From IMG/VR virus record IMGVR_UViG_3300012933_000180, positions 1 through 58,867 of that record: a stretch of 58,867 nt of DNA. One strand, written 5' to 3'. Below the pieces are notes generated by a model that saw only the letters and a list, made by a program, of their open reading frames with translations, did not search any database and was not told the DNA's origin. Both the position numbers and the translations under genes were made by a program. The DNA comes from a virus. Position 1 is the first letter of the stretch. Every line of letters begins with the position of its first letter. Below, in pieces: positions 3,051 to 58,867 of the stretch.

Positions 3051-3093
3051 TCGAGCCAATATTCTGGTTCGTGTGGATACCAGTCATATTCTC

Positions 3094-3667: not shown

Positions 3668-3668
3668 C

Positions 3669-4936: not shown

Positions 4937-4940
4937 CAAC

Positions 4941-4960
4941 ACCCGCTTCGGCGGGTTTTT
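4941..4960 (+). terminator. Rho-independent terminator (ACCCGC-UUCG-GCGGGU + U5)
   Basis: Perfect 6-bp stem with a UUCG tetraloop followed by ttttt, 5 nt after the stop at 4936. Confidence 0.8.
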
Positions 4961-4978
4961 CAATAGAAAGACAGACAT

Positions 4979-5663: not shown

Positions 5664-5692
5664 TATACACACGTTGGCTTAGGCAATACATT
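5664..5692 (+). promoter_or_regulatory. Predicted sigma70-type promoter TATACA-N17-TACATT
   Basis: The -10 TACATT is identical to three other predicted promoters. It sits 23 nt upstream of ATG 5716. The -35 overlaps a one-mismatch copy of the 12-mer ACATACACACGT. Confidence 0.45.
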
Positions 5693-5715
5693 CACCCACT
5701 CACAGAAAGACAGAC

Positions 5716-7903: not shown

Positions 7904-8213
7904 AAAGAAACCCACAACAACTCACAAAGAAGTTCTACCTGAAGATCACCCGCTGTACCATGTGTTCTATGCAGCTATCGAGCAAGCCATGTTCGGTAAA
8001 GGCCAACGACACGGCGGCAACGTGACGCCATTCCTCGAGCAGCCTTGGGCGCACTATCTCAAGATGCACGGTCGCGGCTTCGCTACTGGCCAAGCAGCCA
8101 AGAAGCTGGAAGAAGCAGCATCACTACGCAGCGGTGAAGCGTTCGAGACAGAAGTGTTCGGCGCTATGGTGTACCTCGGCATGGCCATCTTGCACGAGCG
8201 AGGTGAAGTATGA
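7893..8213 (+). CDS. Hypothetical all-alpha protein (106 aa)
   Basis: AAGGAA RBS. FGKGQRHGGN...QPW...GQAAKKLEEA is faintly reminiscent of phage MazG-like NTP-pyrophosphatase families. Not claimed. Confidence 0.55.
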   Translation: MATKKKPTTTHKEVLPEDHPLYHVFYAAIEQAMFGKGQRHGGNVTPFLEQPWAHYLKMHGRGFATGQAAKKLEEAASLRSGEAFETEVFGAMVYLGMAILHERGEV

Positions 8214-8506
8214 GAAAAGTAATTCGTAAATTTATCGTATGGGCCATGGGCTCTAGCGCCCGTGAAGAAGCAATTAAAGCTGCCTACGCACCAATCGTTA
8301 CGCATGAAGGTAACTCGACAAACCTTGACCCGAAGATACGTATCAGCTTTCTCAAAGCCATGAACGGTTCAATCATTGAAGTCAGCTCACACAAACAAAA
8401 CCCGCACGGCCCCGACTGGAAACACGAGCTATACCTTGTTCGCGACGGCGAGAGCCTATCAGACGCAGTAAAAGTAATCTTAGCCACGAAAGCAATCGAA
8501 CAATGA
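8210..8506 (+). CDS. Hypothetical protein (98 aa)
   Basis: ATGA coupling. ORF track. Confidence 0.55.
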   Translation: MRKVIRKFIVWAMGSSAREEAIKAAYAPIVTHEGNSTNLDPKIRISFLKAMNGSIIEVSSHKQNPHGPDWKHELYLVRDGESLSDAVKVILATKAIEQ

Positions 8507-9460: not shown

Positions 9461-9675
9461 TGGAACGCATCCGCACTTTCTACGGTTACCCCCGTGTCCG
9501 CGACGACCGATGGGTAGGACGAATCACCGCTGGCATCATGTGGCGTTGTGAGAAATGCGAGATGTATTTCTGGGATGCAGTGAAAGCAAAGGAACACCAC
9601 GATGACCCCCGTATACATAGACTTCGAGACGTACTGGTCGACAACGCACTCCCTAACAAGGATGCCACCGACTGA
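9460..9675 (+). CDS. Small C2H2-like zinc-finger protein (71 aa)
   Basis: WRCEKCEMYFWDAVKAKEHHDDPRIH fits C-x2-C-x12/13-H-x5-H. The 3' 74 nt overlap the DNA polymerase start. Confidence 0.5.
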   Translation: MERIRTFYGYPRVRDDRWVGRITAGIMWRCEKCEMYFWDAVKAKEHHDDPRIHRLRDVLVDNALPNKDATD

Positions 9676-13064: not shown

Positions 13065-14633
13065 ATGCAAATACACAAAGACAAGAAAGCTGTCTTACTC
13101 CACCTTAGGAATCCTGAAAGAGTAACGACAGTCATCCCCACCGCAGTAATGGTGGCCCACAAAGGAAAACAACTCGTGGCTATTCCGCATAGGCCGGATG
13201 AAACACGCGTACTACGAAGCCTTGGGTTTGAAGTACCAGACCCGATGCCATACCACTACGACTGGCCAAAGGTATCCAACAAGTTCAATCCGTTCGCTGC
13301 GCAAGTGGAGACGGCCTCGTTCTTGTCCATGCACAGCCGAGCGTTCTGCCTCAACGACATGGGTACAGGCAAGACCAACTCAGCACTGTGGGCGTATGAC
13401 TACCTGCGTCGGACTAAGCACGTCAAACGTATGCTCGTTGTGTGCCCACTGTCAACGATGGAGCGCACATGGGGCGACTCAGTGTTCCAGACATTCCCGC
13501 ACCTCAAAGCCAATGTGCTCTACGGTTCACGAGACCGTCGACGCAAGCTGCTGGCCGATGAAGCAGATGTGTATGTCATCAACATTGACGGACTACCTAC
13601 CATTCGGGACGACCTCAAAGACCGTCCTGACATTGACCTGATCGTGATCGACGAGCTGGCCTTGGCCCGCAACTCAAGCACCGACAGATGGAAGACGCTG
13701 AACGCTATATGCAACAAACAGTCAAGCCGCCGAGTATGGGGTATGACCGGTTCGCCAACACCTAACGCACCAACCGATGCGTGGGCACAGTGCAAGCTGG
13801 TTACGCCTACCAACAAAGACGTGCCGATGTTCTTCAGCAAGTTCCGCGACTTGGTTATGCGACAGCTCACCCAGTTCAAATGGGTAGCCCGACCAGACGC
13901 CAATGACACCATCTACACAATGATGCAACCATCCATCCGGTATTCGCTGGATGACTGTGTGGACTTGCCGGAGCAGACGTTCATCACCCGCGACGTGGAG
14001 ATGACTACCGAGCAGAAAAAAGCTTACAAGGACATGATGTCTAAGTTAGCGACCGACTATGCAGGGGGGCAAATCCTCGCTGTCAACGAGGCTGTCAAGG
14101 CCAACAAGCTGATTCAGATCGCCTGCGGCGTCGCCTACGGTACCGATGGTGAGGCAGTAGTCATCCCGTCCGGCCCCCGTATGGAGGCACTCAAGGAGTT
14201 GATCGACGAGTCAAGCGGCAAAGTGATCGTGTTCGTCCCACTGACTGCGGCCCTCGAAGCCGTGGCCAAGGAGCTGCGCAAGAGCACTACCGTGGAAGTT
14301 GTCCATGGTGAGACCAGTAAGACCGAACGTGACCGAATCTTCGCTGCGTTCCAGAAGACTGACGACCCCCGTGTGTTGGTGGCCAACGCTGCGGCTATGA
14401 GCCATGGCTTGACACTGACTGCGGCTACAACCATTGTTTGGTACGCACCCGTTCACAGCAACGAAGTGTATGAGCAAGCATGCGCTAGGGTTCGACGCCC
14501 CGGCCAGACCAAGACCACCGTGATTGCCCACATATCCGGCTCAGACGTAGAGCGACGTGTGTATAAACGTTTGCAAGAAAAGCAGTCGATGCAGGGTATT
14601 TTGTTAGAAATGATGAAAGAGAGGCCTGAATAA
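13065..14633 (+). CDS. SNF2-family helicase/ATPase (522 aa)
   Basis: Motif I DMGTGKT, motif II VIDELALARN, C-terminal lobe VANAAAMSHGLTLT and motif VI QACARVRRPGQ. Confidence 0.9.
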   Translation: MQIHKDKKAVLLHLRNPERVTTVIPTAVMVAHKGKQLVAIPHRPDETRVLRSLGFEVPDPMPYHYDWPKVSNKFNPFAAQVETASFLSMHSRAFCLNDMGTGKTNSALWAYDYLRRTKHVKRMLVVCPLSTMERTWGDSVFQTFPHLKANVLYGSRDRRRKLLADEADVYVINIDGLPTIRDDLKDRPDIDLIVIDELALARNSSTDRWKTLNAICNKQSSRRVWGMTGSPTPNAPTDAWAQCKLVTPTNKDVPMFFSKFRDLVMRQLTQFKWVARPDANDTIYTMMQPSIRYSLDDCVDLPEQTFITRDVEMTTEQKKAYKDMMSKLATDYAGGQILAVNEAVKANKLIQIACGVAYGTDGEAVVIPSGPRMEALKELIDESSGKVIVFVPLTAALEAVAKELRKSTTVEVVHGETSKTERDRIFAAFQKTDDPRVLVANAAAMSHGLTLTAATTIVWYAPVHSNEVYEQACARVRRPGQTKTTVIAHISGSDVERRVYKRLQEKQSMQGILLEMMKERPE

Positions 14634-16067: not shown

Positions 16068-16319
16068 ATGAGCCACCAAGTAAATAAAGAACACATCAAC
16101 CAAATCAAAGTGGACGTCATTTCGATGCTGTCGGGCAAGCGAATCCACCCAGTCGACGTAATGTTGGCGTTGACAGAGCTGGTAGGCCGAACAATCGTGG
16201 ACGTGAGCACATCGCCCGGCCAAGTGGATGACTTGAAGCATGCAGCTACGGCGCATCTGAACAACACCATCTTGTATGGTGCCCATGCAACTGGAAAGAG
16301 CATCATCGAACGGGCTTGA
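16068..16319 (+). CDS. Hypothetical protein (83 aa)
   Basis: GGAGAG RBS. ORF track. Confidence 0.6.
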   Translation: MSHQVNKEHINQIKVDVISMLSGKRIHPVDVMLALTELVGRTIVDVSTSPGQVDDLKHAATAHLNNTILYGAHATGKSIIERA

Positions 16320-16320
16320 G

Positions 16321-19317
16321 ATGGACACACTCGAGTTCCTACGGCTGATATTGCCTGAGTATGGCAATCACTACATAGCCTTGTTCAAGGAGGGTAACAA
16401 GTTCCCGGCGCACCTGCCGGTGCTTAACCTCGAAGACATGGCCGACAAGATCGCGGAGATTTCCCGACGAGCCAACTATCAGGTCTACCACGCTTGCGCT
16501 TCGTACAAGATGCCTTTCGTGGAGATCGACCAACCAGACGGCACGACCAAAAAGAAATACCGTGTACCTGAGAACTGGGATCGCGCTCGCGCATTCTGGT
16601 TAGACATCGACTGCGGTGAAGAGAAAGCCGCCAAGGGTGATGGATACCCCACACAGAAAGATGCAGCCAAGGCTGTGTTCAAGTTTGCTGACACGATTGG
16701 CTGGCCTCGACCAATGCTCGTCAGTTCCGGCTACGGCGTACACGCCTACTGGCCACTGACCAAGGACATCAAATCTGAGACGTGGGTGAAGATCGCCACG
16801 GCCCTGAAATCAACGCTGGCCCACGAAGGTGTGCTGGCCGACCCAACCCGTACTGCTGACTTTGCTTCTATCCTACGACCCGTGGGTGCAGCGAACCGCA
16901 AGAACGGCGGCGAGAAGTCAGTGCGTGTCTTAGCACCATGCGAACCCTTTGACCCAGCGGAACTGGCAGCTAGTCTGTCAGCATACGTTAAGGCCAACGG
17001 CGTCAAGATGGTGAAGGAGAAAACTCACAAGCCCCGCAGCGCACTGATGGCCGAGGCCATGTCCGGCCTTGACTACCCACAAGTGGACAACTCCATTGAC
17101 CTGATCGCATCCAAGTGCGAGCAAGTTGCTCAGATGAAACGTACCCTCGGCGACGTGGGCTACGAGGTCTGGCGCGGCATCAACGGTTTGGCCAAGCATT
17201 GCGTGGACGGCGAAGCCATGATGGAAGCATGGAACGAGCGCCGCCTCGACAACCACGACCAAGACGACTGGCGCGTACGATACGACACATGGTCTATGGG
17301 CCCAACAACATGCGAGTTCTTTGAGGCTAGCAACTGCGACGGCTGTACCGGCTGTGAGCACAAGGGCAACATCAAGTCGCCTATCGTTCTAGGACGCATC
17401 ATCCCGATCACAGTGGAGAAGGAAGTCGAAGTCACCAACGAGGACGCACCGCAAGCTGCTCCCGTGGCGGTAACAATTCCAGCTCTGCCTACTGGGTACA
17501 TGTGGGACGGCCAGCTAATGAGCCGCCTCATTCCAGACAAAGACGGTGTGCTGCACCCTATGGCGTTCTCCACTGAACTGTTCTACCTGACAAGCCGTAT
17601 TCGCGGTGAGGATGGTACGTACCGCCACGGTGTGCGTATGCACATGAACAACAACCGTATCCGTGAGTTCGAGATCACCGGTGAGGCACTGGCATCCAAC
17701 GCTGACTTGATGCGCGCCATGGCCAAGCACGAACTCCACGTGAGCAACCACAAGGACGCAGCAAATCATATGGCCGCATACCTACGAGATCAGCTTCGCG
17801 CACTCAAATCCCAAGTGGACGAGGTTCGCACACTGTCAGCCTACGGCTGGAAGGGCAAGGACTTCTTACTAGGGAATACCCTGTACTGCAACGACGGCAC
17901 TGAGCGCGAGGTTCTGCTCGGTGCTAACGCCAAGAGCATGCTGGCTAGCTTGTCCCCATCCGGGACTGCCAAACTCAGCGAGTACGCTGCGGGCATCGAC
18001 TACCTGTACAACCGCAAGGACGCTGTCCACATGCAGTACACACTGCTGGCTGGCTGGAGTTCTATCCTTACCCCTATGGCTGACTCGCTGTACAAGGGCA
18101 TGGTGTTCGCGTTGCACGGCGGCAAGACTGGTCGCGGCAAGACCACTGTGTGTCATGCGTCGCTGTATGCGTTCGGTCGCCCAGACAAGCTCGCTATCGG
18201 CGGCAAAGACGGGTATACCAACAACGGCCTGTGGGGTGTAGTCGGTACGCTGAACAACATCCCTGCCATGGTAGACGAGCTGTCAAACGTCGACCCCCGT
18301 GATATGAGCGCCCTGTCTTACGGTGTCAGCAATGGCCGTGAGAAAGTACGTATGCAGACCCGCAACGGCCAAGTCCAGTTCGCCAATTCCGGCGAGTGGG
18401 GCATGAACGTGTTCGTCACTGGTAACAACGACTTCCATGGTGTTCTGGCATCTGGCCAAGCCAACTCGCAAGCCGAGGCGGTGCGCCTGATTCAGATCGA
18501 GGTGGACAGTTTCCCAAGCCTTACCCCCGAGAGCGAGCGTGACAAAGAGTCACCTGCGGCTGCCGAGGAAATGCGTTTGGCCCGTATCGCCACGAACAAG
18601 GTCGAGGACAACTGCTGCTTGGCCGGTATCGAGATGGTTCGCTACGTGACCAAGAATTACGATGCAGTCAAAGCCGACGTGGATGCCACGCTGCAAGACT
18701 TGAGCACCAAGATTCCGGGCACCGAGTATCGTTTCTACCGTAACCACACAGCCTGCACACTGGCAATCGGACGTGTGGCCAAGAAGCTGGGCATCATCGA
18801 CTTTGACTTGGTCGCCATGGAGCAGTTCATCATCGACTTGCTGCACGGTTTGACTTCACGAGTCATGCAGACTAACAGCATCTCTGACGACGACATGCTT
18901 GGCCAACTGGTTAACTCGTTGATGTCCCGTATCCTCGTGACCAATGAGATGCGCGACAAGCGCGATGGCCGTGGCCCTGAAACTCCACGCAACCGAATCA
19001 TTGGCGAGGTGGCTGGCCGCTACGTGCTGGGTACCCAGAAGGACAAAACCCATGCTGGGCATCTGATGCTTGCGCAGAAGGAAGTCCGCGACTGGTGTAT
19101 CAAGAACCGTACGGACTACAACGCGTTGATGGCGTATCTAACCAAAGAGGGTGTGCTGCTGAACAAGAGCGAGAAGGTTACCTTGACCAAGGGTACGGAC
19201 TTCCCTTACATGCAGCACCGTTGTATCGTCATCGACTTGTCCAAAGCCGAACATTCTGTCGCACCAACACTTACTTTAGTTGGAGTTGTTGACGACCAAG
19301 AGGAACAGAGTGCATAA
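16321..19317 (+). CDS. Primase-polymerase / superfamily-3-like helicase fusion (998 aa from ATG 16321)
   Basis: N-terminal prim-pol-like YHACASY...FWLDIDCGEEK...GYGVHAYW. Cys cluster CEFFEASNCDGCTGCEHKG. Walker A HGGKTGRGKT, Walker B MVDELSN. The track ORF begins 45 nt upstream, inside the preceding gene. Confidence 0.85.
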   Translation: MDTLEFLRLILPEYGNHYIALFKEGNKFPAHLPVLNLEDMADKIAEISRRANYQVYHACASYKMPFVEIDQPDGTTKKKYRVPENWDRARAFWLDIDCGEEKAAKGDGYPTQKDAAKAVFKFADTIGWPRPMLVSSGYGVHAYWPLTKDIKSETWVKIATALKSTLAHEGVLADPTRTADFASILRPVGAANRKNGGEKSVRVLAPCEPFDPAELAASLSAYVKANGVKMVKEKTHKPRSALMAEAMSGLDYPQVDNSIDLIASKCEQVAQMKRTLGDVGYEVWRGINGLAKHCVDGEAMMEAWNERRLDNHDQDDWRVRYDTWSMGPTTCEFFEASNCDGCTGCEHKGNIKSPIVLGRIIPITVEKEVEVTNEDAPQAAPVAVTIPALPTGYMWDGQLMSRLIPDKDGVLHPMAFSTELFYLTSRIRGEDGTYRHGVRMHMNNNRIREFEITGEALASNADLMRAMAKHELHVSNHKDAANHMAAYLRDQLRALKSQVDEVRTLSAYGWKGKDFLLGNTLYCNDGTEREVLLGANAKSMLASLSPSGTAKLSEYAAGIDYLYNRKDAVHMQYTLLAGWSSILTPMADSLYKGMVFALHGGKTGRGKTTVCHASLYAFGRPDKLAIGGKDGYTNNGLWGVVGTLNNIPAMVDELSNVDPRDMSALSYGVSNGREKVRMQTRNGQVQFANSGEWGMNVFVTGNNDFHGVLASGQANSQAEAVRLIQIEVDSFPSLTPESERDKESPAAAEEMRLARIATNKVEDNCCLAGIEMVRYVTKNYDAVKADVDATLQDLSTKIPGTEYRFYRNHTACTLAIGRVAKKLGIIDFDLVAMEQFIIDLLHGLTSRVMQTNSISDDDMLGQLVNSLMSRILVTNEMRDKRDGRGPETPRNRIIGEVAGRYVLGTQKDKTHAGHLMLAQKEVRDWCIKNRTDYNALMAYLTKEGVLLNKSEKVTLTKGTDFPYMQHRCIVIDLSKAEHSVAPTLTLVGVVDDQEEQSA

Positions 19318-22900: not shown

Positions 22901-25900
22901 ACAGTTCTTCGCGGACACGGTCAGCCGTCATACCCTCGTTGTCTTCCAACGGGTAGAACATCAGCTCAGCCAATGGTGACTCAGGGTCTGCTTTAACGTG
23001 AGCCAACAACTCAGCCACGATGTCGCCCTTAGGCATGGCAGAAACTGTGCCATTCTTGAACTTCAAGTTGAACTGAGGCTCGCCGGAGTATAGGCCGCCG
23101 TTTTCCAAGCCCTCGATGGCGTGGCCGATTTCGTGCAGCGTAGCAATAGTGGCATCGTACTCAGAAGCCAGAGCGTCAGCGCTAAACACGATTGCGCGTT
23201 CACCATCAATGGTGGTGTAGATAGCGTCCCAAGCCACAGGGTCGTTCGTTACATACCAAGCGTCGATAGCCTTCACAGTGTGAGACAGACCGGACTTGTG
23301 CAAAACCGCCACAGCTTTGACCACACCTTTGTGATCGAGCAAGTCTTGGAGCGTAGTCTCTTCGGCGGCAAAGTTGTTGCCTTCACCATCACGCATCGGG
23401 ATGGCCGAGCGCTTCTCGTAGATGTCGCCTGTCAGCTCTTTGGTGACGTTAGTGTCTTCGACTTCCTCGGCTTGGTCGATACCGAAGTCTTCTACCTTGG
23501 CTTCCTTAGATGCTCTGGTTTGCTTAGCTTCAACCTTCTTCAGCGTTACTTGTAGCTTGGCTTCTTGCTCCACAATAAGTTTGGCAAGTCGTGTTTCCAA
23601 GGATGGGTCTTCCTCGACCATGGCTTTCAACGCATCAATAGCGTCTAAGATTCCTATGATTGAGTTGTTCTGAGCTTCAGTAGCTGCGTTGGCAGTATCG
23701 CCAATACCGGCCTTGGCGTTACCTTGTTTCCACAAAGTAGACTGGTCATCGCCATACCCAAGGGTGCCGCTTTCTGAAGCATCAACACCAAGCTCGCGCA
23801 GCTTAGCCGCAACCTCAGCCGGAATTTCTTCCCCTGTGGTAGATACCTTTTTCTTGGAAAAGTCCGCTACTTCAAGCAGTGACCGCGCTTGTGCAGGGCT
23901 CATACCCATTTCAACAGCAGCAGCCACCAGCTCGGTAGTGCTTCCGATACTACGTACTGTTTTAGCTGTAATGCCGTACTGAGCTCCAATTTCATCAGCC
24001 ACTTTGCCAGTCAGACCGTATGGAGCATTTTTCATCGCCGCCAAATACTGATTGGCAATCTTAATGTCACGTTCAGGGTTCGTGCTAGTAGCAAAGCGAC
24101 GTTTCATCACGGCTTCGACGGCTGCTTGACTTTGTTCGTCGTTAAGCATCTCTACATCAGACAGCAGTGACGTACCTTGCTGACCTTGAGTATCACCCTC
24201 GGACTTAAGGAGTTCTTGAGACTCGGCAGTGTTGCCAGTCAACTCACCCAAGGCCAGCTGGTCTTCCAACGAAAGGTTGGATACACGCTCCGCAGGGATG
24301 CCTTCTTGAACGGCAGTGTCCTCTGTGGTTTCTGGGGCCACGTATGCAGTTCCCTGCTGTGGTTGATTAAACACCACGCGGCGCTTGCGCGTTACAACGG
24401 GAGCTTGTTGGTTGGCACCAGTTCCGAGAAGTGAAACTTCTGGGCCACTTGATGGAGCGATGGGGGCAACTCCACCCACTCCCCCAACTCCTTGGGCGAC
24501 ATTAGCATTTGATCCAGTAGGAGCCACGCCTCCTGATACGACACCGCCCCCAACATCCACGCTTGGTGCAACTCCGGTGTCAGTGGGAACTGTTGTGCCG
24601 ACATTTTGTTGATCCTTAGGTACGCGGTACGCCTTGCCTACTTTGGCAACACGCTGCTTTTCTTGGAAGTCTGCTTCGATCTGAGCCAGAGTTTTCTCTA
24701 CGGCTCCATAACGGTTCTTCTTCAGCTCAGCGGCCACCTCACCCAACTGGGCGGGGGTAAGCAATTCATTACCCACAAGGTCGACAGCCTTGGTGAACAG
24801 GTCGATGCGTTGCTGGATTGGCGTACCTTTCTTGGACGTCAATTTCAGCTTGTACTTTTCGGCAGCTTGGGTCAACTCATCAGCAATGTCGCCGGTAGTA
24901 GTCTGGGCCGCAGTCTCGGCTTGCGTAGCAGCAGGAGGCACGTACCCGGGGTATCGGGCTTTAAGTGTGTCTTCTGGGGTAAGCGCGGCAGTTCCGTCTG
25001 ACGTGACGTTGATAGCCTCTGAGGAAGGGCGAACCGATCCATCAGGGTAGGTAATCATGTTGCCAGCCATGGGGTCGTACCCAATACCCAGCAATGGTGG
25101 GCGCTGTACTAACTGGTCATCCGCAGTGGGGTTAGCCCCGCCGAGCAAGTTGACCGTATGCGAACGGTTGTTCAGGTAAGCAACACCGCCACCACCAATG
25201 CCGCCGAGAGCGCCACCCATCAGGGCAGAGCCAAACACGCCTTTGCTGCGGTCAATCGTGGGGTCGTACTGGTGCGCAGCAATGTTGGCCGAAGCCTTAG
25301 TCGCACCTTCTTCACCGAACTCACTGGCAAATTCTTTGGCAGCCAGCTTGCGGATACCCTGCTTACCAGCACCAGCCATAACGGCTTCCATACCAGTACC
25401 GCCAGTGATTGCGCCGATCAGCGCTGGAACCACGGACGCATCACGTGCAGCAGCACGGGCAAGCATTTCCTTTTGTTCCTGTGGAACATTGGGGCTAGCC
25501 ATGACTTGGGCGTAGGCATCAGCCGCAGCATCACCGCCGCCAGCAGCACCGCTCATAGCAGCACCAGCACCACGGCCAGCCCATGTAGAACCCTTAGCGC
25601 CAAGGCCCGCCAGCTCAGCAGCACCAACAGCAGTCTTAACGCCACGACCGATAGGGCCGACGTTACCGACAATCTTGGCAGCAGTCTGGATAGGGGAGGT
25701 GACGATGTACTTACCAACACCCTTGGCAGCTTCCCAGCCACCCTCGTCGATGGCTTGATTCAGCTCACCTTCAGATTGCTTGACGATGTCACTTTGGTTT
25801 TGCTCACCCTCAGTGATGATGGATTGCAGACCGCGAGACAGTGGGTTATCCACGGACACGAAGTCGCTCATGGATTTGGCCAAGCCTAAGCCAGAGTTAA

Positions 25901-26066
25901 CCGCCGTGATGACGGTGTCATTGGCTACCGCAAACGGGTTGCGGGTTTTAGGTGCTGTCTTAGCCTTTGGCCCGGCTTCGATTTCATCCCACACACTACG
26001 CGTGGAGGTGTCCGCTTTAGGCAAGCTAGGTTTGCCAGATTCAATCTCATCCCAAATGCTTGCCAT
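19905..26066 (-). CDS. Giant internal virion/ejection protein with PLxRFG motif (2053 aa)
   Basis: Uninterrupted 6.2-kb ORF. PLRRFG at nt 22041..22058. HEIGH at 23121..23135. Gly/Ala-rich hydrophobic N-terminal third. Several TM-like stretches in the C-terminal quarter. Last large gene of the virion arm. Confidence 0.85.
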   Translation of the reverse strand: MASIWDEIESGKPSLPKADTSTRSVWDEIEAGPKAKTAPKTRNPFAVANDTVITAVNSGLGLAKSMSDFVSVDNPLSRGLQSIITEGEQNQSDIVKQSEGELNQAIDEGGWEAAKGVGKYIVTSPIQTAAKIVGNVGPIGRGVKTAVGAAELAGLGAKGSTWAGRGAGAAMSGAAGGGDAAADAYAQVMASPNVPQEQKEMLARAAARDASVVPALIGAITGGTGMEAVMAGAGKQGIRKLAAKEFASEFGEEGATKASANIAAHQYDPTIDRSKGVFGSALMGGALGGIGGGGVAYLNNRSHTVNLLGGANPTADDQLVQRPPLLGIGYDPMAGNMITYPDGSVRPSSEAINVTSDGTAALTPEDTLKARYPGYVPPAATQAETAAQTTTGDIADELTQAAEKYKLKLTSKKGTPIQQRIDLFTKAVDLVGNELLTPAQLGEVAAELKKNRYGAVEKTLAQIEADFQEKQRVAKVGKAYRVPKDQQNVGTTVPTDTGVAPSVDVGGGVVSGGVAPTGSNANVAQGVGGVGGVAPIAPSSGPEVSLLGTGANQQAPVVTRKRRVVFNQPQQGTAYVAPETTEDTAVQEGIPAERVSNLSLEDQLALGELTGNTAESQELLKSEGDTQGQQGTSLLSDVEMLNDEQSQAAVEAVMKRRFATSTNPERDIKIANQYLAAMKNAPYGLTGKVADEIGAQYGITAKTVRSIGSTTELVAAAVEMGMSPAQARSLLEVADFSKKKVSTTGEEIPAEVAAKLRELGVDASESGTLGYGDDQSTLWKQGNAKAGIGDTANAATEAQNNSIIGILDAIDALKAMVEEDPSLETRLAKLIVEQEAKLQVTLKKVEAKQTRASKEAKVEDFGIDQAEEVEDTNVTKELTGDIYEKRSAIPMRDGEGNNFAAEETTLQDLLDHKGVVKAVAVLHKSGLSHTVKAIDAWYVTNDPVAWDAIYTTIDGERAIVFSADALASEYDATIATLHEIGHAIEGLENGGLYSGEPQFNLKFKNGTVSAMPKGDIVAELLAHVKADPESPLAELMFYPLEDNEGMTADRVREELFAQLWAFTASDAGMKFLKENNLPQAAAFMEKVHAEVKQTDYAKKQSAKSGQVSTKPQAGGDVRQIRSGGGTAQGNKETLLNSPAAKLLTEAVSATADKALNTVVFTEDLLSRAVKQGIKSASKILKIYRERAAMVGREEREVERIASLYNRIPDADRGTGAASANRFVYDMTREAKWGFSPDWRAATATKVAPDPVMEQRFNRLSEESQEWIREVFKHGDSMLANKKATLIEATNSEYDALIKHAQDKGDQGKVDKLNKAKAAQLKEYTRLFSSNEFLPYAPLRRFGDFVVVAKSAKYMAASPAEQAKMQNDPNEYHVSFAESRMSAIELRDQLAAQFKGGEVEYRAKEDAKNDMAGGLLSAFNKLRATVDSELNNYPSGDERAALVKTRELVSDLYLAALADASSRKSEMRRKGVAGEIDMLRSFATQGRADAQFLAAAKYNSQTMDAFNEMRKQVREGGDQAAKSDLFNEIWARHMQSMTYDASTWAEKTARMTSLWMLATSPTYYIQNLTQPFLLSVPFMAGRHNYFKSVAALGKAYSQLGGLIKNSRIDEQFDFANVPADVRKMISTLVDRQQIDIGMETELGKFQVAGESAAARGINVVDRVLRTASQKMEAINRVSTAMAAYRMELAKTGNVQEAIDYASKVISQTHGDYTRLNAPRAFNTNAGKVALQFRKFQLIQLTLLTKLVHNSVKGETPEIQHAARKALALTVAHTGALAGLVGMPGFAAFAYMLNALGDAFGDDDKPTDVELAAYNMLAEAYGEDMAQVIMRGTPTAMGLDLSGKIGMGNALSILPFTDMELSRKGVAEMGFGVLAGATGGMAMKIGDGLGDIKRGEYYRGIEKLLPKGLSDVMKAIREADEGVTRKNGDVLLSADEINAAQSFAKAIGLPISQDTIRRMKTNALYEAKTSFEEKATSIKNEYIQAKKSGDTTSMLEARDKWRKLQDSRSAAGFSRKPMSSLTEAPMQQRQRERQTVGGVQYNKDTKKFVTGMMGD

Positions 26067-55308: not shown

Positions 55309-55827
55309 TTATGATTCATCAGTGATGATTTTGGTAGGCAAATCAAGGGTTTGCATGCGATTTGTATCATTCATATTGGACAAACTGAGGGTGTTTCCAC
55401 CGCCCAAGTCGATCGAAATGCTGAATCCGGGCCCTGAATTGGACTGTTTTTCCTCTTTTGGCTCCAAACCGCCAGCTTTTATGAGGGTTTTCAGCACATC
55501 ATGGCGCTGACTGAGGCTGGCATCGGCACTTGCCGCCTGCACATAGACCTTATCCAACAAATCGGACGCCATCCATGCGGCTTTGGCCTTGAATGTAACG
55601 CCGTTTTTCTCGAATTCGGACCTCAGTACGGCGATGCGCACCTGAATATGGGGTAGTGCCTCGAGCGCCTTGAATTCTTCCACAGTTAACCCGTGGCGTG
55701 CAGCGATCACGACGTCTTCCTCTAACCCCAGTGCCATGGAATTGAGCATTTCCTCCGAGATCAGAGGAAACGATACGGTTTTGTTGCCGTACTCCAGCGG
55801 GTCGTCGGTGATTTCTAGATCATCCAT
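55309..55827 (-). CDS. Terminase small subunit candidate (172 aa)
   Basis: Position immediately upstream of terL and typical size. No motif. Confidence 0.5.
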   Translation of the reverse strand: MDDLEITDDPLEYGNKTVSFPLISEEMLNSMALGLEEDVVIAARHGLTVEEFKALEALPHIQVRIAVLRSEFEKNGVTFKAKAAWMASDLLDKVYVQAASADASLSQRHDVLKTLIKAGGLEPKEEKQSNSGPGFSISIDLGGGNTLSLSNMNDTNRMQTLDLPTKIITDES

Positions 55828-55978
55828 TGGCTTTGGCTTCCTCGGCCTTCTTGACGGCGGCTAAGTATTTTTCAATAGCTGTACGGATGACGTCTGCCAT
55901 GGCAATCTTCTTGCGATCGGCTAGCTTTTTGACATCGTCCATCAGGGCGTCGGGGAGGTATAGGTTTCTGCGTCTCAT
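55820..55978 (-). CDS. Ribbon-helix-helix (CopG/Arc/MetJ-type) DNA-binding protein (52 aa), absent from the ORF track
   Basis: Hand-translated: MRRRNLYLPDALMDDVKKLADRKKIAMADVIRTAIEKYLAAVKKAEEAKANG. Beta-strand RNLYLP followed by two helices. Its stop overlaps the next start (ATGGATGA). Confidence 0.7.
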   Translation of the reverse strand: MRRRNLYLPDALMDDVKKLADRKKIAMADVIRTAIEKYLAAVKKAEEAKANG

Positions 55979-55984
55979 GGGCGC

Positions 55985-56012
55985 AATGTATCACGTGTGT
56001 ATGTAGTGTCAA
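55985..56012 (-). promoter_or_regulatory. Predicted sigma70 promoter TTGACA-N16-TACATT with A-tract UP element
   Basis: Minus strand reads aaaaaaaatcaaaaaaagccTTGACActACATACACACGTgaTACATTgcgcccATG. The -10 ends 6 nt before the RHH start codon. Confidence 0.65.
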
Positions 56013-56488
56013 GGCTTTTTTTGATTTTTTTTACGTGTGTATGTCCTTAAAACTTGGCTTGCTGTGAGAGAACGCCGTAAGGGGAGGGGGCTGGGGTCGA
56101 CCTCGTTGGGCCCATGGGTGGGGTGGCAAAGTGCCCTAGTGTGTAGGGTAGACACAGCGAATCGAGTAGCAGACTGCCCTACATTGTGAAGTGATCGTAC
56201 TTTGCATTTTGCCTACCTTCGGGTAGGACACCGAGTCACATTGCCGCCGTGCGTTGTGCCTTCGCCCCAAGATTTCTTCGTGGGCAAGGCGTGTATCGTC
56301 AAGCGGGTAAACAATGCCACACGGTGCGATCGTTAAAAATTTACATATGCGTTGGATTTCCCCGCATCACCTAACCCACGATTACGTGGCACGGTGTAAA
56401 CGAGCACGGCATGGCACGGCGGGGAGATTTTGTGATGTACCTTGATTCGCAGGGCACATCCTGAAATTAACCTTCAAAGGAAATCAAA

Positions 56489-56890
56489 ATGACAAACGCA
56501 CTCTCAATCATCGAAAACGGCACTTCAATCGTAATCGACAAGCGTGGTAACACGGGTTCATTCGCCTTGGCTATCGCATACGCTTCTCGTGAACAGCGCG
56601 CCGAGTTCGGCCAAATGATGTACGCCAAATGGCTTGGCACGGGTCAATTCCGCCCCTTGGTCAACGATATTCTCGCATCGGGCTTGATCCCCAAAGCCGC
56701 TGTGCCTTACGTGGCCGCAACTGTGCCTGCAACTGGCGCAATCAGCAAAGATACGCTCACATACTTGTGCCAGCAAATCTCTGGTGCTGTGGCCGCCAAG
56801 GGTAAAGAGCTCAAAGGCAAAAAAGCATACGTGTTCGCTGTGGTTGATCGCATCGCTCGTGGTGCAACACCTTCAACTATCGAAGCCTAA
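56489..56890 (+). CDS. First plus-arm protein, hypothetical (133 aa)
   Basis: AAAGGAAA RBS. ORF track. No motif. Confidence 0.65.
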   Translation: MTNALSIIENGTSIVIDKRGNTGSFALAIAYASREQRAEFGQMMYAKWLGTGQFRPLVNDILASGLIPKAAVPYVAATVPATGAISKDTLTYLCQQISGAVAAKGKELKGKKAYVFAVVDRIARGATPSTIEA

Positions 56891-57111
56891 TGCCTAAGGT
56901 TCATTCCGTGCCCAAGGGCACTATGTATGCAATGCCTCCCCTCCGCAAAGGGGAGGTTGATCGCAAAACGCAGGGCGGCTTGCCGCCTGTGCCATACCGC
57001 AACGCTTGCTCAAAGTGGGCTGGGTGTCCAACCAAGTTTGCTCGGGAGCCCTTTGCATCCAAACAAATCAAAGCGGAGGTGTTTGCTGACCGTAAACATA
57101 CACACGTTTGA
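56890..57111 (+). CDS. Doubtful ORF (73 aa)
   Basis: ORF track only. Pro/Lys/Gly-rich and runs into the repeat-rich control DNA. Confidence 0.25.
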   Translation: MPKVHSVPKGTMYAMPPLRKGEVDRKTQGGLPPVPYRNACSKWAGCPTKFAREPFASKQIKAEVFADRKHTHV

Positions 57112-57125
57112 CACCACGAATCGAA

Positions 57126-57463
57126 TAAGACAACGCCAAATTGTCTTGCAGACTGTCTTAATTGAAATATCCATATAAATCAACGACTTACCCTTCCTAT
57201 TAAGACAATAAGACAATAAGACAATATATATAAGGTACACGCCTATGAAAATGTTGTTCGTGTAGCCCATACAAATTGCGCGCAAACATCACGCACACAC
57301 AATAGGCAGCCCCTACCTTTTCGCTCTGTCTTATTCGAGCAGGGTAAACCCTAATATGCCTCGCTAGCCCAATATCCATGCGGGTTTCAAGGCATACACA
57401 CGTAAAAACGATTAAGACAGCGCCCCCAAAACTGTCTTATTACCCCCCGCCTATTGTCTTAAT
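57126..57463. repeat. Array of at least 10 TAAGACA(A/G) 8-mers in both orientations (iteron/operator array)
   Basis: Three perfect tandem TAAGACAA at 57201..57224. Further boxes at 57126, 57141, 57154, 57327, 57412, 57432 and 57454. The region is AT-rich and non-coding. Confidence 0.85.
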
Positions 57464-57499
57464 AGGTACTTTGCAACTACATACACACATGGAGTAAAC

Positions 57500-57643
57500 A
57501 TGACTGACCAAGAACTATCCGAACTCACCCGCCGCTATGTCTATGAGAAGGACGATGCTGTGGCCGAACAACTGAAGGAACAAATCCAAGCCGAATACGC
57601 CCGCCGTGGTGTTGCCATATACAAACCCGAACACATGGAGTAA
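57500..57643 (+). CDS. Small early protein (47 aa)
   Basis: GGAG RBS 6 nt upstream. MTDQELSELTRRYVYEKDDAVAEQLKEQIQAEYARRGVAIYKPEHME. Confidence 0.5.
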   Translation: MTDQELSELTRRYVYEKDDAVAEQLKEQIQAEYARRGVAIYKPEHME

Positions 57644-57646
57644 CTC

Positions 57647-57808
57647 ATGCGCTACATATACATACACACCTTGAACGATCAACCGATAGACTTCTATACC
57701 GATGAAGACTTAGACGAATACATCTGTGAGTACAACGTGGACACATCCGAACACTTGGAAACCTTGGATGATGCAATCAACGCCCGTTACACAAGGATGT
57801 TCGCATGA
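57647..57808 (+). CDS. Small highly acidic early protein (53 aa)
   Basis: MRYIYIHTLNDQPIDFYTDEDLDEYICEYNVDTSEHLETLDDAINARYTRMFA. Confidence 0.5.
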   Translation: MRYIYIHTLNDQPIDFYTDEDLDEYICEYNVDTSEHLETLDDAINARYTRMFA

Positions 57809-57966
57809 CCAAGAATGAATCTGTACTCGTGGCCATATGGTCTTGCATAGCTATCTCGGCAGGCATGGATATGCACGGCTATGTAGCCGATGTCTTACTG
57901 ACCTTAGGCGGTGCAGGCATAGGCGCGGCATTCATGCTCCCAACCCAAAAGGAAAAAGATGACTAA
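57805..57966 (+). CDS. Small membrane protein (53 aa)
   Basis: ATGA coupling. VLVAIWSCIAISAG and LLTLGGAGIGAAFML are hydrophobic stretches. Confidence 0.5.
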   Translation: MTKNESVLVAIWSCIAISAGMDMHGYVADVLLTLGGAGIGAAFMLPTQKEKDD

Positions 57967-58087
57967 GCACACCACAAGGGGTATCCGTTTCAGCCTATAT
58001 CCCGACGATGGATTCGGTAACTGCCAAGTCCGCATCACATACCACCAACTCTTAACGCGCATCGACACCCACTGGGGAGAACTATGA
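57959..58087 (+). CDS. Small early protein (42 aa)
   Basis: Hand-translated: MTKHTTRGIRFSLYPDDGFGNCQVRITYHQLLTRIDTHWGEL. Overlaps both neighbours. Confidence 0.4.
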   Translation: MTKHTTRGIRFSLYPDDGFGNCQVRITYHQLLTRIDTHWGEL

Positions 58088-58368
58088 ACACCACTCACTT
58101 ACCGCAAACACGCACAGCCACCTACCACTGGATGTCAGACCCCGGCCATGCTTGGCTCGCCGTAGATATGGAGGAGCTGGACTTGCTGGGCATAACCAAA
58201 CAGATCAGCCCGTATTCATATCAGCGCAACGACATCGCATACCTTGAAGAAGACTGTGATGCTGGCCTGTTCCTTGAAGCCATGCGAGCTAAGGGCGTAG
58301 CCATACAGTTCCGCACACACCACACAGACCACGACAGCGTGATTCGCTCATACCGGAGATTCCCATGA
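58084..58368 (+). CDS. Hypothetical early protein (94 aa)
   Basis: ORF track. YHWMSDPGHAWLAV...ISPYSYQRNDIAYLEEDCDAGLF looks like a conserved phage family (from memory; function unknown). Confidence 0.6.
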   Translation: MNTTHLPQTRTATYHWMSDPGHAWLAVDMEELDLLGITKQISPYSYQRNDIAYLEEDCDAGLFLEAMRAKGVAIQFRTHHTDHDSVIRSYRRFP

Positions 58369-58490
58369 CAGTCAAACGAAAATCGTGGCCGTTTCCAACC
58401 AAAGACGCGCCGCTTAAACCCACAACGCCTGCACAGGAACGCACGTACCAGCAGGAACAACGAAGCAAACTACCCGAGGCACCCCTATGA
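58365..58490 (+). CDS. Small basic early protein (41 aa)
   Basis: ATGA coupling on both sides. MTVKRKSWPFPTKDAPLKPTTPAQERTYQQEQRSKLPEAPL. Confidence 0.4.
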   Translation: MTVKRKSWPFPTKDAPLKPTTPAQERTYQQEQRSKLPEAPL

Positions 58491-58816
58491 CAGACAAGCA
58501 AGAGCAGGGTGAGCCAAAGAAAAAGTGGAAAGGCCAAATTGACAATGATGAATTCTTTGAATCGTTAGAGCAAGAGCAGGGTGAGCCTGTGGCGCAGTGT
58601 TGTTCAGCAGGAATAGCGCACGATTGCCACGCTGGTGATGGGTGTCGAATTGTTGAACGAATCAAATCCACACCACAACCAGCACAGAAGCCGCTGACGG
58701 ATGAGCAGATTGAGGGAATTGCACAAATGACTTGTATTGGTATTTCGCCACATGAAGACACTTTAAATTTCGCCAGAGCAATCGAAGCCGCCCACGGCAT
58801 AAAGGATAACAAATGA
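58487..58816 (+). CDS. Hypothetical early protein (109 aa); its 3' end is repeated at 1..120
   Basis: ORF track. The C-terminal LTDEQIEGIAQMT...FARAIEAAHGIK motif is common in small phage early proteins. Confidence 0.6.
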   Translation: MTDKQEQGEPKKKWKGQIDNDEFFESLEQEQGEPVAQCCSAGIAHDCHAGDGCRIVERIKSTPQPAQKPLTDEQIEGIAQMTCIGISPHEDTLNFARAIEAAHGIKDNK

Positions 58817-58867
58817 AGCTCGAATGGAACAAGGCTCCAGTAAAAACACAATGGGGGCACGACATGA
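58697..58867. repeat. Terminal direct repeat copy B (identical to 1..171)
   Basis: Same 171 nt as the window start. Reading frames continue seamlessly across the junction. Confidence 0.9.

What the first reader, a model, noticed from the sequence alone, without database searches (positions are those of the whole stretch)
57126..57463. Dense array of TAAGACA(A/G) 8-mers plus DnaA-box-like 9-mers: replication origin or omega-type RHH operator field
Seen: three perfect tandem TAAGACAA lie at 57201..57224. Single boxes lie at 57126..57133 and 57412..57420 (+). Inverted boxes lie at 57141..57147, 57154..57161, 57327..57335, 57432..57441 and 57454..57463. One pair forms TTAAGACAG-N11-CTGTCTTATT (57412..57441). 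All sit in about 340 bp of AT-rich DNA with no convincing ORF. The 9-mer AATATCCAT occurs twice (57166..57174, 57371..57379) and is two mismatches from the DnaA-box consensus TTATCCACA. Possible outlying boxes are AAGACA-N7-TGTCTT at 13078..13096 and the AAGACAG core in the leaders at 4965 and 5704. Established: iteron arrays beside AT-rich DNA mark origins. Contiguous 7-8-bp repeats in mixed orientation are how RHH regulators such as omega (pSM19035) and ParG read DNA. Inference: this is either the phage ori or a cooperative operator field read by the RHH protein encoded 1.2 kb away. No ParA-type ATPase is present, so partition is unlikely.
Basis: partly seen in the sequence, partly recalled or inferred. 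Interest (0 to 1): 0.65.

Follow-up and report, generated by a model that had tools for sequence, protein, structure and literature searches.

The report
Conserved 8-bp box array, reader unknown
A 360-bp non-coding stretch of an uncultured phage carries about ten copies of an 8-base box laid out the same way in 68 related phages, and the boxes change in step between relatives, so an unidentified protein (not the nearby RHH repressor) most likely reads them, possibly to start DNA replication.

Summary
Nine of the window's 14 TAAGACAR boxes lie in 57126-57461, including a perfect tandem triplet at 57201-57224.

The window is a circular 58.7-kb genome of an uncultured podovirus-like phage. The array lies between the terminase/structural arm and the early/replication arm.

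Sixty-eight distinct arrays in related contigs share one map:
- a (+) box near -80 and (-) boxes near -50;
- an IHF consensus near -25;
- the triplet at 0;
- a 90-bp box-free gap;
- (-) boxes near +120 and an inverted pair at +205/+235.

Box sequence switches as a set between relatives (TAAGACAA, TTAGACAA, TTATCCAA, TTATCTAA and others) while the spacers stay conserved. Mixed arrays also exist. This points to a sequence-specific trans-acting reader.

Its beta-strand class tracks a second motif that brackets the array (CATACACAC in the window).

Best guess (about 0.4): an iteron-type replication origin assembled with IHF. The rivals are an early-promoter control field and a packaging site.

The parts
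57126..57133 (+). Left-cluster box TAAGACAA (map position about -75 from the triplet)
   Evidence: A (+) box lies at -95..-70 in most of 58 arrays.
57141..57161 (-). Two inverted boxes: TTGTCTT (57141-57147) and CTGTCTTA (57153-57160)
   Evidence: (-) boxes lie at -65..-45 in the family map. The aligned boxes in L002 read TTGGATT and TTGGCTTA.
57166..57174 (+). AATATCCAT: a copy of the sister box type (ATATCCA), not a good DnaA box
   Evidence: ATATCCAA and TTATCCAA are the boxes of relatives L212, L337, L338 and most of the window lineage.
57178..57190 (+). IHF consensus AATCAACGACTTA (WATCAANNNNTTR), 23 bp before the triplet
   Evidence: 3 matches in the whole window. The consensus lies at -30..-21 in 31 of 58 arrays. 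It is 11-fold enriched in arrays against the rest of the loci and is kept in L002 while the boxes change.
57201..57224 (+). Tandem triplet (TAAGACAA)x3, the anchor of the array
   Evidence: The exact 24-mer occurs in 22 syntenic viral contigs. A triplet of whatever box type is present in all 68 distinct arrays.
57225..57325 (.). Box-free central segment: a short A+T-rich start (TATATATAAGG), then the palindrome TTGCGCGCAA at 57276-57285
   Evidence: No boxes lie between +24 and +110 in 58 arrays. An A/T- or purine-rich run follows the triplet in all lineages, and a G+C-rich palindrome recurs near the centre.
57326..57333 (-). Inverted box CTGTCTTA (map position +125)
   Evidence: The (-) box peak lies at +110..+135. 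The aligned box in L002 is TTGGATTA.
57334..57402 (+). Conserved spacer blocks TTCGAGCAGGGTAAACCCTA and CCAATATCCATGCGGGTTTCAAGGCATACACACG. The second contains the second AATATCCAT (57371-57379) and a CATACACAC copy (57393-57401).
   Evidence: Nearly identical in L002 although the boxes differ. ATCCATGCGGG is present in L033 and L039 and in many window-lineage arrays.
57413..57439 (.). Inverted pair TAAGACAG-N11-CTGTCTTA
   Evidence: A (+) box at +200..+215 pairs with a (-) box at +220..+255 in the family map. The aligned pair in L002 is TTAATCCAA-N12-TTGGATTAA.
57454..57461 (-). Last inverted box TTGTCTTA, 39 bp before the first early start codon (57500)
   Evidence: This is the only box left unchanged in L002 (L002 7024-7031).
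55995..56043 (-). Two copies of the second motif CATACACAC (55995-56003 and 56035-56043) at the RHH/late-operon promoter (TTGACA-16-TACATT, 56012-55985)
   Evidence: Not part of the 8-mer array, but part of the same control region.
57097..57105 (+). Second-motif copy just left of the array. Further copies lie at 57393-57401, 57480-57488 (12 nt before the first early ATG) and 57661-57669.
   Evidence: 8 copies in the window against 0.5 expected, 6 of them in 55995-57669. The motif type tracks the RHH beta-strand class in 38 loci.
55820..55978 (-). RHH (Arc/CopG-like) gene: probable reader of the second motif, excluded as reader of the 8-mer boxes
16276..19317 (+). Primase-helicase (DUF927; helicase core related to the SCCmec Cch and SaPI Rep helicases). 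It is the replication protein an origin here would have to load. It is not shown to read the boxes.
   Evidence: PDB 5DGK E = 2.4e-5; 8TCH E = 0.088. No subdomain co-varies with box type.

Best explanation
The array is a single-copy assembly site where many copies of one protein bind the DNA.

Proposed steps:
1. A sequence-specific factor binds about ten copies of an 8-bp box. The factor is most likely phage-encoded and has not been identified.
2. The boxes form a left cluster, a tandem triplet and two right-hand inverted groups.
3. Host IHF bends the DNA at its consensus site, 23 bp before the triplet, and brings the clusters together.
4. The most likely job of the complex is to mark the phage replication origin. 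It would destabilise or present the A+T-rich, box-free 90-bp segment next to the triplet.
5. The phage primase-helicase (DUF927, Cch/SaPI-Rep family) and family-A polymerase would then start replication there.
6. Operators for the RHH repressor (CATACACAC in the window) sit on both flanks and at the late promoter. They would couple the site to early transcription.

Shown: the array, its conserved map, the concerted switching of boxes, the IHF consensus, the RHH/second-motif link, and the exclusion of several candidate readers.

Inferred: that a protein binds, that IHF is used, and that the function is replication initiation.
For: 1. The clustering is far beyond chance.
2. There is one array per genome in all loci that cover about 20 kb.
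3. The position is the same in every relative: between terS-terL-portal and the early genes, upstream of the AAA_5/VWA/PolA genes. This holds from TerL 90% identity down to 33%.
4. The map is stereotyped in 58 fully flanked arrays out of 68 distinct ones.
5. Eight aligned boxes differ by the same GA<->TC dinucleotide between the window and L002, while the spacers and the IHF site are conserved. Further types occur (TTAGACAA, TTATGACA, TTATCTAA, ATATCCAA, GGAATATT).
6. All boxes in a genome share one sequence, which a set of independent RNA or DNA helices would not need.
7. An IHF consensus lies at a fixed offset in 31 of 58 arrays and is 11-fold enriched.
8. A tandem triplet, an adjacent A/T-rich run, an IHF site, and inverted copies before the first gene together match the layout of iteron origins (pSC101, P4 ori, SaPI ori; from my own knowledge).
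9. The phage helicase belongs to the family of the SaPI Rep and Cch initiator helicases.
10. No sigma-70-like promoter lies on the early strand inside the array. The separate palindromic operators that track the RHH sit at its edges. So transcription control has its own, different sites.
Against: - No protein was found whose presence or sequence tracks box type. The RHH, the wHTH, TerS, the zinc-ribbon protein, the upstream gene (three unrelated families), AAA_5, the 290-aa protein and the primase-helicase were all tested.
- No initiator gene is adjacent. The primase-helicase is 17.8 kb away and its variable stretch looks like a linker.
- The A+T-rich run next to the triplet is short (about 10-13 bp) in the window lineage and in the high-G+C relatives.
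- 8-bp contiguous repeats are shorter than most iterons.
- The exact triplet is shared by phages whose proteins are only 25-50% identical. That is unusual for an initiator/iteron pair and could point to a host factor.
- Mixed arrays exist.
- GC skew shows no turning point.
Confidence: 0.4

Rival explanations
1. Early-transcription control field. An unidentified phage regulator coats the boxes and, with IHF, represses or activates the promoter(s) of the early operon that starts at 57500.
For: - The array lies directly upstream of the first early gene, and the last box is 39 bp before the ATG.
- The N11 inverted pair and the contiguous 8-mers resemble operators read by small oligomeric repressors.
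- RHH-type operators interleave with the array.
- The box following the triplet could overlap a weak -10-like A/T run.
Against: - No sigma-70-type promoter lies on the + strand in the array.
- Boxes occur at one locus only, not at other promoters.
- Ten sites spread over 360 bp with a 90-bp gap is more than an operator needs.
- The genes just downstream differ between relatives that share the same boxes.
- The region already carries a separate operator system that tracks the RHH.
Confidence: 0.25
2. Packaging recognition site (pac or cosB-like). The small terminase subunit binds the box clusters, IHF bends the DNA, and the terminase cuts in the box-free segment.
For: - There is one site per genome, 1.3-2 kb from terS-terL.
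- Repeat clusters flanking a roughly 90-bp segment with an IHF site recall P1 pac and lambda cosB (from my own knowledge).
- Many metagenomic contigs end in or next to the array.
Against: - TerS does not track the boxes. The window's 172-aa TerS is only marginally related to the 117-aa TerS of distant phages that carry the identical triplet.
- L077 has the same TerS core but TTATGACA boxes.
- Only one T-conserved TerS column differs in both AGACA lineages, about what chance gives.
- Contig ends fall at different positions, as expected where a conserved segment is flanked by strain-variable genes.
- A gene on the opposite strand separates the array from terS.
Confidence: 0.12
3. Host-factor site cluster. 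The boxes are read by a conserved host protein. For the TTATCCAA type this would be DnaA, making the element an oriC-like origin that uses the host initiator.
For: - The exact TAAGACAA triplet is kept across phages with 25-50% protein identity.
- TTATCCAA matches 7 of 9 positions of the DnaA box, and one copy in L175 reads TTATCCACT.
- An IHF site is present.
- No phage protein correlates with box type (many calls).
Against: - At least six box types occur among close relatives and even within one array. That does not fit a single conserved host protein.
- The window's own boxes (TAAGACAA) are not DnaA boxes.
- The 8-bp tandem period is shorter than the 9-bp DnaA site.
- The host is unknown, so this could not be tested.
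Confidence: 0.1
4. Omega/MetJ-type operator field read by the RHH protein encoded at 55820-55978.
For: Contiguous 8-bp repeats in mixed orientation fit the way RHH proteins bind DNA. An RHH gene lies 1.2 kb away.
Against: - The same MRRRNLY beta-strand class occurs with TAAGACAA (window) and with TTATCCAA (7 loci).
- The KRWNLF class occurs with both pure-ATCCA and mixed arrays.
- tblastn finds no RHH homologue in the distant loci with identical boxes, and the terS-to-upstream-gene gap there is too short for one.
- The RHH class tracks a different motif: GTGTATACAC, CACTAnCnGnTAGTG or CATACACAC.
Confidence: 0.03
5. Another single-locus DNA transaction site, such as an arm-type recombination site (attP-like) or an injection-stop or anchoring signal as proposed for T5. 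Alternatively, a structured leader RNA whose helices are formed by the direct and inverted boxes.
For: - The layout (arm-like repeats in both orientations, an IHF site, a central unique segment) resembles attP (from my own knowledge).
- Direct and inverted boxes could pair.
Against: - The early-arm and selected structural proteins scanned against Pfam/PHROGs gave no integrase or recombinase match. Not every ORF was scanned.
- None of 35 bacterial contigs with the 24-mer has the array, so no prophage copy was seen.
- All boxes in a genome share one sequence, and there is no helix-specific covariation.
- No Rfam family matches.
Confidence: 0.08

Closest known systems
Iteron-type plasmid origins, pSC101 in particular (IHF site, three direct repeats, then inverted repeats before the first gene)
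   Same: A tandem triplet of direct repeats, an IHF site just upstream of it, inverted copies of the same repeat further on before the first gene, a single locus, and repeats that change together with their reader across relatives.
   Different: The repeats are 8 bp and contiguous rather than about 18-22 bp at helical spacing. There is no adjacent rep gene and no DnaA box. The A+T-rich run is short.
Phage P4 ori/crr (octamer type I iterons, TGTTCACC, in both orientations, read by the alpha primase-helicase) and SaPI ori (two sets of short iterons flanking an A+T-rich segment, read by the Rep helicase)
   Same: Octamer or hexamer repeats in direct and inverted orientation. Two repeat groups flank an 80-90-bp segment. 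The element encodes a primase-helicase whose helicase core matches the Cch/SaPI Rep family.
   Different: The primase-helicase gene is 17.8 kb from the array. No domain of it co-varies with box type. There is no second site like crr.
Omega (pSM19035), ParG and MetJ operators read by RHH proteins
   Same: Contiguous 7-8-bp units, tandem and inverted, which suggests cooperative binding of small dimers.
   Different: The sites span 360 bp with a 90-bp gap and an IHF site, and no promoter overlaps the triplet.
Lambda cosB and P1 pac
   Same: Repeat clusters plus an IHF site near the terminase genes, once per genome.
   Different: TerS does not track the boxes. No defined ends were seen.

Membership tests
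Iteron-type replication origin | Several direct repeats of one sequence at a single locus | tested here: met
   A triplet plus 6-7 further boxes, with one array per genome.
Iteron-type replication origin | A+T-rich unwinding element beside the repeats | tested here: inconclusive
   An A/T- or purine-rich run follows the triplet in all lineages. It is 30-55 bp in distant relatives but only about 10-13 bp in the window and the high-G+C relatives.
Iteron-type replication origin | Cognate initiator whose specificity changes with the repeats | tested here: not met
   The boxes switch in concert, but no protein tracking them was found among all genes within about 10 kb or in the primase-helicase.
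Iteron-type replication origin | Supports initiation of replication | not testable with these tools
   Needs marker-frequency analysis or an autonomous-replication assay. GC skew is uninformative.
Iteron-type replication origin | Host bending-protein site (IHF) within the origin | tested here: met
   WATCAANNNNTTR lies at 57178-57190 and at the same offset in 31 of 58 arrays. This is a sequence match only.
RHH (omega/MetJ-type) operator array | Contiguous 7-8-bp units in direct and inverted orientation | tested here: met
RHH (omega/MetJ-type) operator array | An RHH protein whose DNA-reading beta-strand goes with the repeat sequence | tested here: not met
   The same beta-strand class occurs with different boxes, and different classes occur with the same boxes. 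The classes track another motif.
RHH (omega/MetJ-type) operator array | Repeats overlap the regulated promoter | tested here: inconclusive
   The consensus scan found no sigma-70-type promoter on the early strand. Weak promoters are not excluded.
DnaA-box cluster | 9-mers matching TTATCCACA with at most one or two mismatches | tested here: not met
   The window's boxes are TAAGACAA. The two AATATCCAT 9-mers are poor matches. The sister type TTATCCAA matches 7 of 9.
pac/cosB packaging site | Small terminase subunit specificity goes with the repeats | tested here: not met
pac/cosB packaging site | Terminase cut or genome end at the site | not testable with these tools
   Contig ends near the array are imprecise. 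The window's 171-bp end overlap lies inside genes.
SaPI/P4-type origin read by a primase-helicase | Element encodes a helicase of the initiator (DUF927 / Cch / Rep) family | tested here: met
   PF06048. PDB 5DGK E = 2.4e-5, with 8TCH only weakly at E = 0.088.
SaPI/P4-type origin read by a primase-helicase | Origin adjacent to the helicase gene, and a specificity domain matched to the iterons | tested here: not met
   The gene is 17.8 kb away. The low-identity stretch (aa 751-810) is a variable-length linker, and the C-terminal region is conserved across box types.

The most novel reading that the evidence does not exclude
The array is the origin, or master assembly site, of a large family of uncultured aquatic phages. 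It would be read by a DNA-binding protein that current profiles do not recognise, or by a domain of one. The central dinucleotide of the box (GA, TC, TT and others) would act as a switchable specificity code defining mutually exclusive replication or 'immunity' groups, and the mixed arrays would be recombinants caught in transition.
Probability: 0.3. Interest if true: 0.7.

Novelty: new variant of a known kind. Interest (0 to 1): 0.55.

Why it matters
The module is found in 68 distinct arrays from many metagenomes. It belongs to a phage family with no cultured member at the DNA level, whose closest cultured relatives have a TerL only 39% identical.

It gives a clean natural experiment in co-evolution between a DNA site and its reader. 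The same 360-bp scaffold carries at least six box variants, including a two-base switch applied to eight aligned boxes, as well as mixed arrays.

It would also give a simple sequence marker for sorting these phages into compatibility groups.

The work also corrects a tempting but wrong assignment. The nearby RHH repressor reads a different motif.

Tried and rejected
Searches that found nothing:
- DNA search of 56000-58867 against GenBank phages: no match.
- Literature search for the box strings: nothing relevant.
- Rfam on 55900-57700: no family.
- Pfam/PHROGs on all early small ORFs, the upstream gene families and the 223-aa core protein: no DNA-binding annotation beyond the RHH and the wHTH. 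A PDB profile search with the 223-aa family found nothing.

Checks on related records:
- Genome-collection scan for the 24-mer: 35 bacterial hits, all plain microsatellites without inverted boxes, so no prophage copy and no host clue.
- Pseudomonas phage Rollin, the closest isolate by primase-helicase, is not syntenic.

Candidate readers rejected:
- RHH.
- The upstream gene: three unrelated families, hhalign probability below 2%.
- wHTH 6563-7075: absent from distant TAAGACAA loci, and its recognition helix does not partition by box type.
- Zinc-ribbon early protein: absent from the window.
- TerS.
- AAA_5 and the 290-aa protein: no columns that separate box types. VWA and the 223-aa protein could only be compared with L033/L039.
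- Primase-helicase.

Other analyses:
- Gene presence/absence across 26-39 typed loci gave only weak, phylogeny-confounded correlates. The best was the 98-aa ORF at 8210-8506: present in 5/6 AGACA-type, 3/5 mixed and 0/3 ATCCA-type loci.
- Contig ends near the array were considered as physical genome ends and rejected because the positions are not precise.
- The boxes as sigma-70 -35 elements were considered and rejected, because spacing to -10-like runs is not conserved.
- Structure prediction was not run. The sequence comparison had already shown that the variable stretch of the primase-helicase is a linker.
Full report
**1. The observation**

Every coordinate in the finding is correct.
- TAAGACAR occurs 14 times in the window, against 3.05 +/- 1.8 in dinucleotide-preserving shuffles.
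- Nine of the 14 lie in 57126-57461. The binomial probability of that concentration is 1.4e-17.
- The stretch is 41.7% G+C against 52.7% for the genome.
- It lies between a gene conserved in relatives that ends at 57111 and the first early gene at 57500.

The proposed outlying sites are not part of the array.
- The 'leaders' at 4965 and 5704 share a ribosome-binding context, GAAAGACAGACAT(A)TG.
- The pair at 13078-13096 is inside the SNF2 gene, has no counterpart of the other box type in a relative, and has no equivalent near the SNF2 gene in distant relatives that keep the TAAGACA box.

**2. Genomic context**

The first 171 nt of the window repeat its last 171 nt, so this is a circular assembly of 58,696 bp.

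Genes run rightward from about 56.4 kb, through the junction, to 19.3 kb. This is the early and replication arm:
- an AAA_5 ATPase, a VWA/metallopeptidase protein and family-A DNA polymerase;
- a PD-(D/E)XK nuclease and an SNF2 helicase;
- a 1013-aa DUF927 primase-helicase.

Genes run leftward from 56.0 to 19.9 kb:
- RHH, small terminase, large terminase, portal and major head protein;
- an internal virion protein, tail fibre proteins and a 2053-aa DarB-like protein.

No GenBank phage matches at the DNA level. The best TerL match is 39% identical, in Pelagibacter phage Hodr.

**3. The array is a conserved module**

The exact 24-mer (TAAGACAA)x3 occurs in 28 IMG/VR contigs. Twenty-two of them have the same flanking boxes and the same neighbours: portal, TerL and TerS on one side, and early genes, AAA_5, VWA and PolA on the other. 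Yet their TerL is only 33-35% and their portal about 45% identical to the window's.

Searches seeded with PolA, TerL, SNF2 and AAA_5 brought in many more relatives. In all, 89 loci (68 distinct arrays) have a tandem triplet with at least three inverted copies nearby.

In the 58 arrays with full flanks, the map relative to the first base of the triplet is stereotyped:
- a (+) box at -95..-70;
- (-) box(es) at -65..-45;
- an IHF consensus at -30..-21 in 31 arrays;
- the triplet at 0/8/16;
- no boxes from +24 to +110;
- (-) box(es) at +110..+135;
- a (+) box at +200..+215 paired with (-) boxes at +220..+255;
- nothing beyond +280.

The window fits this map box for box. Only one array was seen per genome in loci covering about 20 kb.

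The 24-mer also occurs in 35 bacterial contigs, but there it is a plain microsatellite without inverted copies.

**4. The boxes change in concert**

L001 and L002 are close relatives (TerL 89%, portal 82%). They keep the architecture, the spacer blocks (for example TTCGAGCAGGGTAAACCCTA and TATCCATGCGGG..AGGCATACACACG) and the IHF site. In eight aligned boxes, however, TAAGACAA is replaced by TAATCCAA/TTATCCAA. This is the same GA->TC change each time, on whichever strand the box lies. One box is left unchanged.

Other relatives use other boxes:
- TTAGACAA;
- TTATGACA (L077);
- TTATCTAA (L187, L325);
- ATATCCAA (L212, L337);
- GGAATATT (L033, L039).

In the window's own lineage (TerL 81-90%), TTATCCAA is the commonest type and the AGACA type is the minority. 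Ten loci have mixed arrays, in which the AGACA boxes sit in the triplet and the flanks are ATCCA.

All boxes in a genome share one sequence and change together, while the spacers do not change. The simplest reading is that a sequence-specific trans-acting reader is co-evolving with its sites. A set of RNA or DNA helices would not need one common sequence, and no Rfam family matches.

The window's two AATATCCAT 9-mers are copies of the sister box type. The second sits in a spacer block conserved in relatives whatever their box type.

**5. The RHH reads a different motif**

CATACACAC occurs 8 times in the window (0.5 expected). Six copies lie in 55995-57669:
- two at the RHH/late promoter;
- one just left of the array;
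- one inside it;
- one 12 nt before the first early ATG;
- one just inside the second early ORF.

In 38 window-lineage loci, the RHH beta-strand class predicts this second motif:
- KRWNL[FY] goes with the palindrome GTGTATACAC (49 copies in 20 loci, none elsewhere);
- KRHN[LM]F goes with CACTAnCnGnTAGTG (27 copies in 4 loci, none elsewhere);
- RRRNLY (the window and 7 others) goes with CATACACAC only.

The 8-mer box type does not follow the RHH class. RRRNLY occurs with TAAGACAA in the window and with TTATCCAA in seven loci. KRWNLF occurs with both pure-ATCCA and mixed arrays.

In the distant phages with the identical triplet, tblastn finds no RHH homologue and the short gap between terS and the upstream gene leaves no room for one.

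The RHH probably controls promoters at the edges of the array and its own promoter.

**6. The search for the real reader**

None of the following tracks box type:
- **The gene just upstream of the array.** Three unrelated families occupy this slot (hhalign probability below 2%), and each occurs with more than one box type.
- **The wHTH protein (6563-7075).** It is absent from distant TAAGACAA loci, and its recognition helix does not partition by type.
- **A zinc-ribbon early protein.** It is common next to the array but absent from the window.
- **TerS.** The window's is only marginally related to that of distant phages with the same triplet. L077 has the same TerS core but different boxes. 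Only one conserved column differs in both AGACA lineages, about what chance gives.
- **AAA_5 and the 290-aa protein.** No discriminating columns. For VWA and the 223-aa protein only the L033/L039 comparison was available.
- **The primase-helicase.** It is 27% identical to the distant group with no conserved subdomain. It is 60% identical to a TTATCCAA-type near relative, and the low-identity stretch is a variable-length linker. The C-terminal region is conserved across types.

Presence/absence analysis over typed loci gave only weak correlates that are confounded by relatedness. The best was the 98-aa ORF at 8210-8506, present in 5/6 AGACA-type, 3/5 mixed and 0/3 ATCCA-type loci. It may lie in parts of the genomes I could not fetch, or be a host protein.

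**7. What the array most likely does**

The features point to an assembly site for many protein copies on the DNA, of the kind used for replication origins, packaging sites or recombination sites, rather than a simple operator:
- one copy per genome;
- about ten sites in both orientations over 360 bp;
- a fixed IHF consensus between the left cluster and the triplet;
- a box-free segment beginning with an A/T-rich run;
- inverted copies before the first gene.

The layout is closest to iteron origins. In pSC101 the order is an IHF site, three direct repeats, then inverted repeats before the first gene. P4 has octamer iterons in both orientations read by a primase-helicase. SaPIs have two sets of short iterons flanking an A+T-rich segment, read by the Rep helicase (all from my own knowledge).

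The phage's helicase core matches the Cch and SaPI Rep helicases (5DGK E = 2.4e-5, 8TCH E = 0.088).

I therefore rank a replication origin first, at about 0.4. The arguments against are:
- the missing cognate initiator;
- the short A+T run in this lineage;
- the distance to the helicase gene;
- the unusual conservation of the exact box across very divergent phages.

An early-promoter control field comes next (0.25). The array is directly upstream of the early genes. But no sigma-70-type promoter was found on that strand, the boxes occur nowhere else, and a separate operator system is already present.

A packaging site is possible (0.12), but TerS does not track the boxes and contig ends near the array are imprecise.

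A host-factor or DnaA reading (0.1) fits the TTATCCAA type only loosely. It does not fit the many box types found among close relatives.

**8. Novelty and verdict**

The element is a new variant of a known kind: an iteron-like, IHF-assisted multi-site array. It is found across a large uncultured phage family and shows an unusually clear record of concerted site switching.

Its origin reading stays open as the leading hypothesis. Its RHH reading is refuted, and its DnaA-box reading is not supported.

Noticed in passing
window 55995-56003, 56035-56043, 57097-57105, 57393-57401, 57480-57488, 57661-57669: A second repeated motif, CATACACAC, occurs 8 times in the window against 0.5 expected. It brackets the array and sits on the RHH/late promoter. 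In relatives its form (GTGTATACAC, CACTAnCnGnTAGTG or CATACACAC) follows the RHH beta-strand class, so it is probably the RHH operator.
   Followed up: yes
window 1-171 and 58697-58867: The two ends of the window are identical over 171 nt, inside coding sequence. The window is therefore a circular assembly of a 58,696-bp genome opened at an arbitrary point.
   Followed up: partly
window 56489-57111 and the same slot in L003, L006, L015 and others: The gene slot just upstream of the array is filled by three unrelated protein families of 130-180 aa in different relatives. All are of unknown function (one is phrog_1448).
   Followed up: partly
window 9602-11518: The DNA polymerase is 54% identical to that of the distant TAAGACAA group but only 35% identical to that of the otherwise closer L034/L037 group. 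This indicates module exchange in the replication arm.
   Followed up: partly
window 898-5650: A conserved early block holds an AAA_5 (MoxR-like) ATPase, a 290-aa protein, a DUF2201 metallopeptidase/VWA protein and a 223-aa protein. Relatives of the 223-aa protein weakly match Nmad5 (nucleotide-modification-associated domain). This may be a DNA-modification or host-takeover module.
   Followed up: no
window 19905-26066 (-): A 2053-aa protein matches DarB-like antirestriction proteins over its C-terminal 900 residues. It lies at the far end of the structural arm.
   Followed up: no
window 4941-4978 and 5690-5716: Two genes share the leader AGAAAGACAGACAT(A)TG. The first follows a terminator-like hairpin, ACCCGCTTCGGCGGGTTTTT.
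   Followed up: partly
L004, L013, L014, L016, L024, L039, L048, L075 and others: Many metagenomic contigs of this family end inside or within about 1.5 kb of the array, at varying positions. This is as expected where a conserved segment is flanked by strain-variable early genes.
   Followed up: partly
L008, L018, L021, L026 (both flanks of the array): In one distant sub-lineage, a motif like CGACTCATAGG(N)ATATG recurs on both sides of the array. It recalls the core of T7-type promoters, but no phage RNA polymerase gene was seen in the stretches fetched.
   Followed up: no
L002 7544-7804, L015 2298-2516, L006 6828-7037, L033 about 550-760 and others: A roughly 70-aa zinc-ribbon protein (CxxC...CxxC...PMHKSNY) is the most widely kept early gene next to the array in all lineages, but it is missing from the window.
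   Followed up: partly
L065 290-520: A different array of TGACGTA boxes lies between a leftward gene and a gene upstream of PolA. It looks like an ordinary divergent operator region and is unrelated to the array studied here.
   Followed up: no
window 57276-57285: A perfect palindrome, TTGCGCGCAA, lies in the middle of the box-free segment. A G+C-rich palindrome or hairpin recurs at about the same place in several relatives (L187, L212, L230).
   Followed up: no
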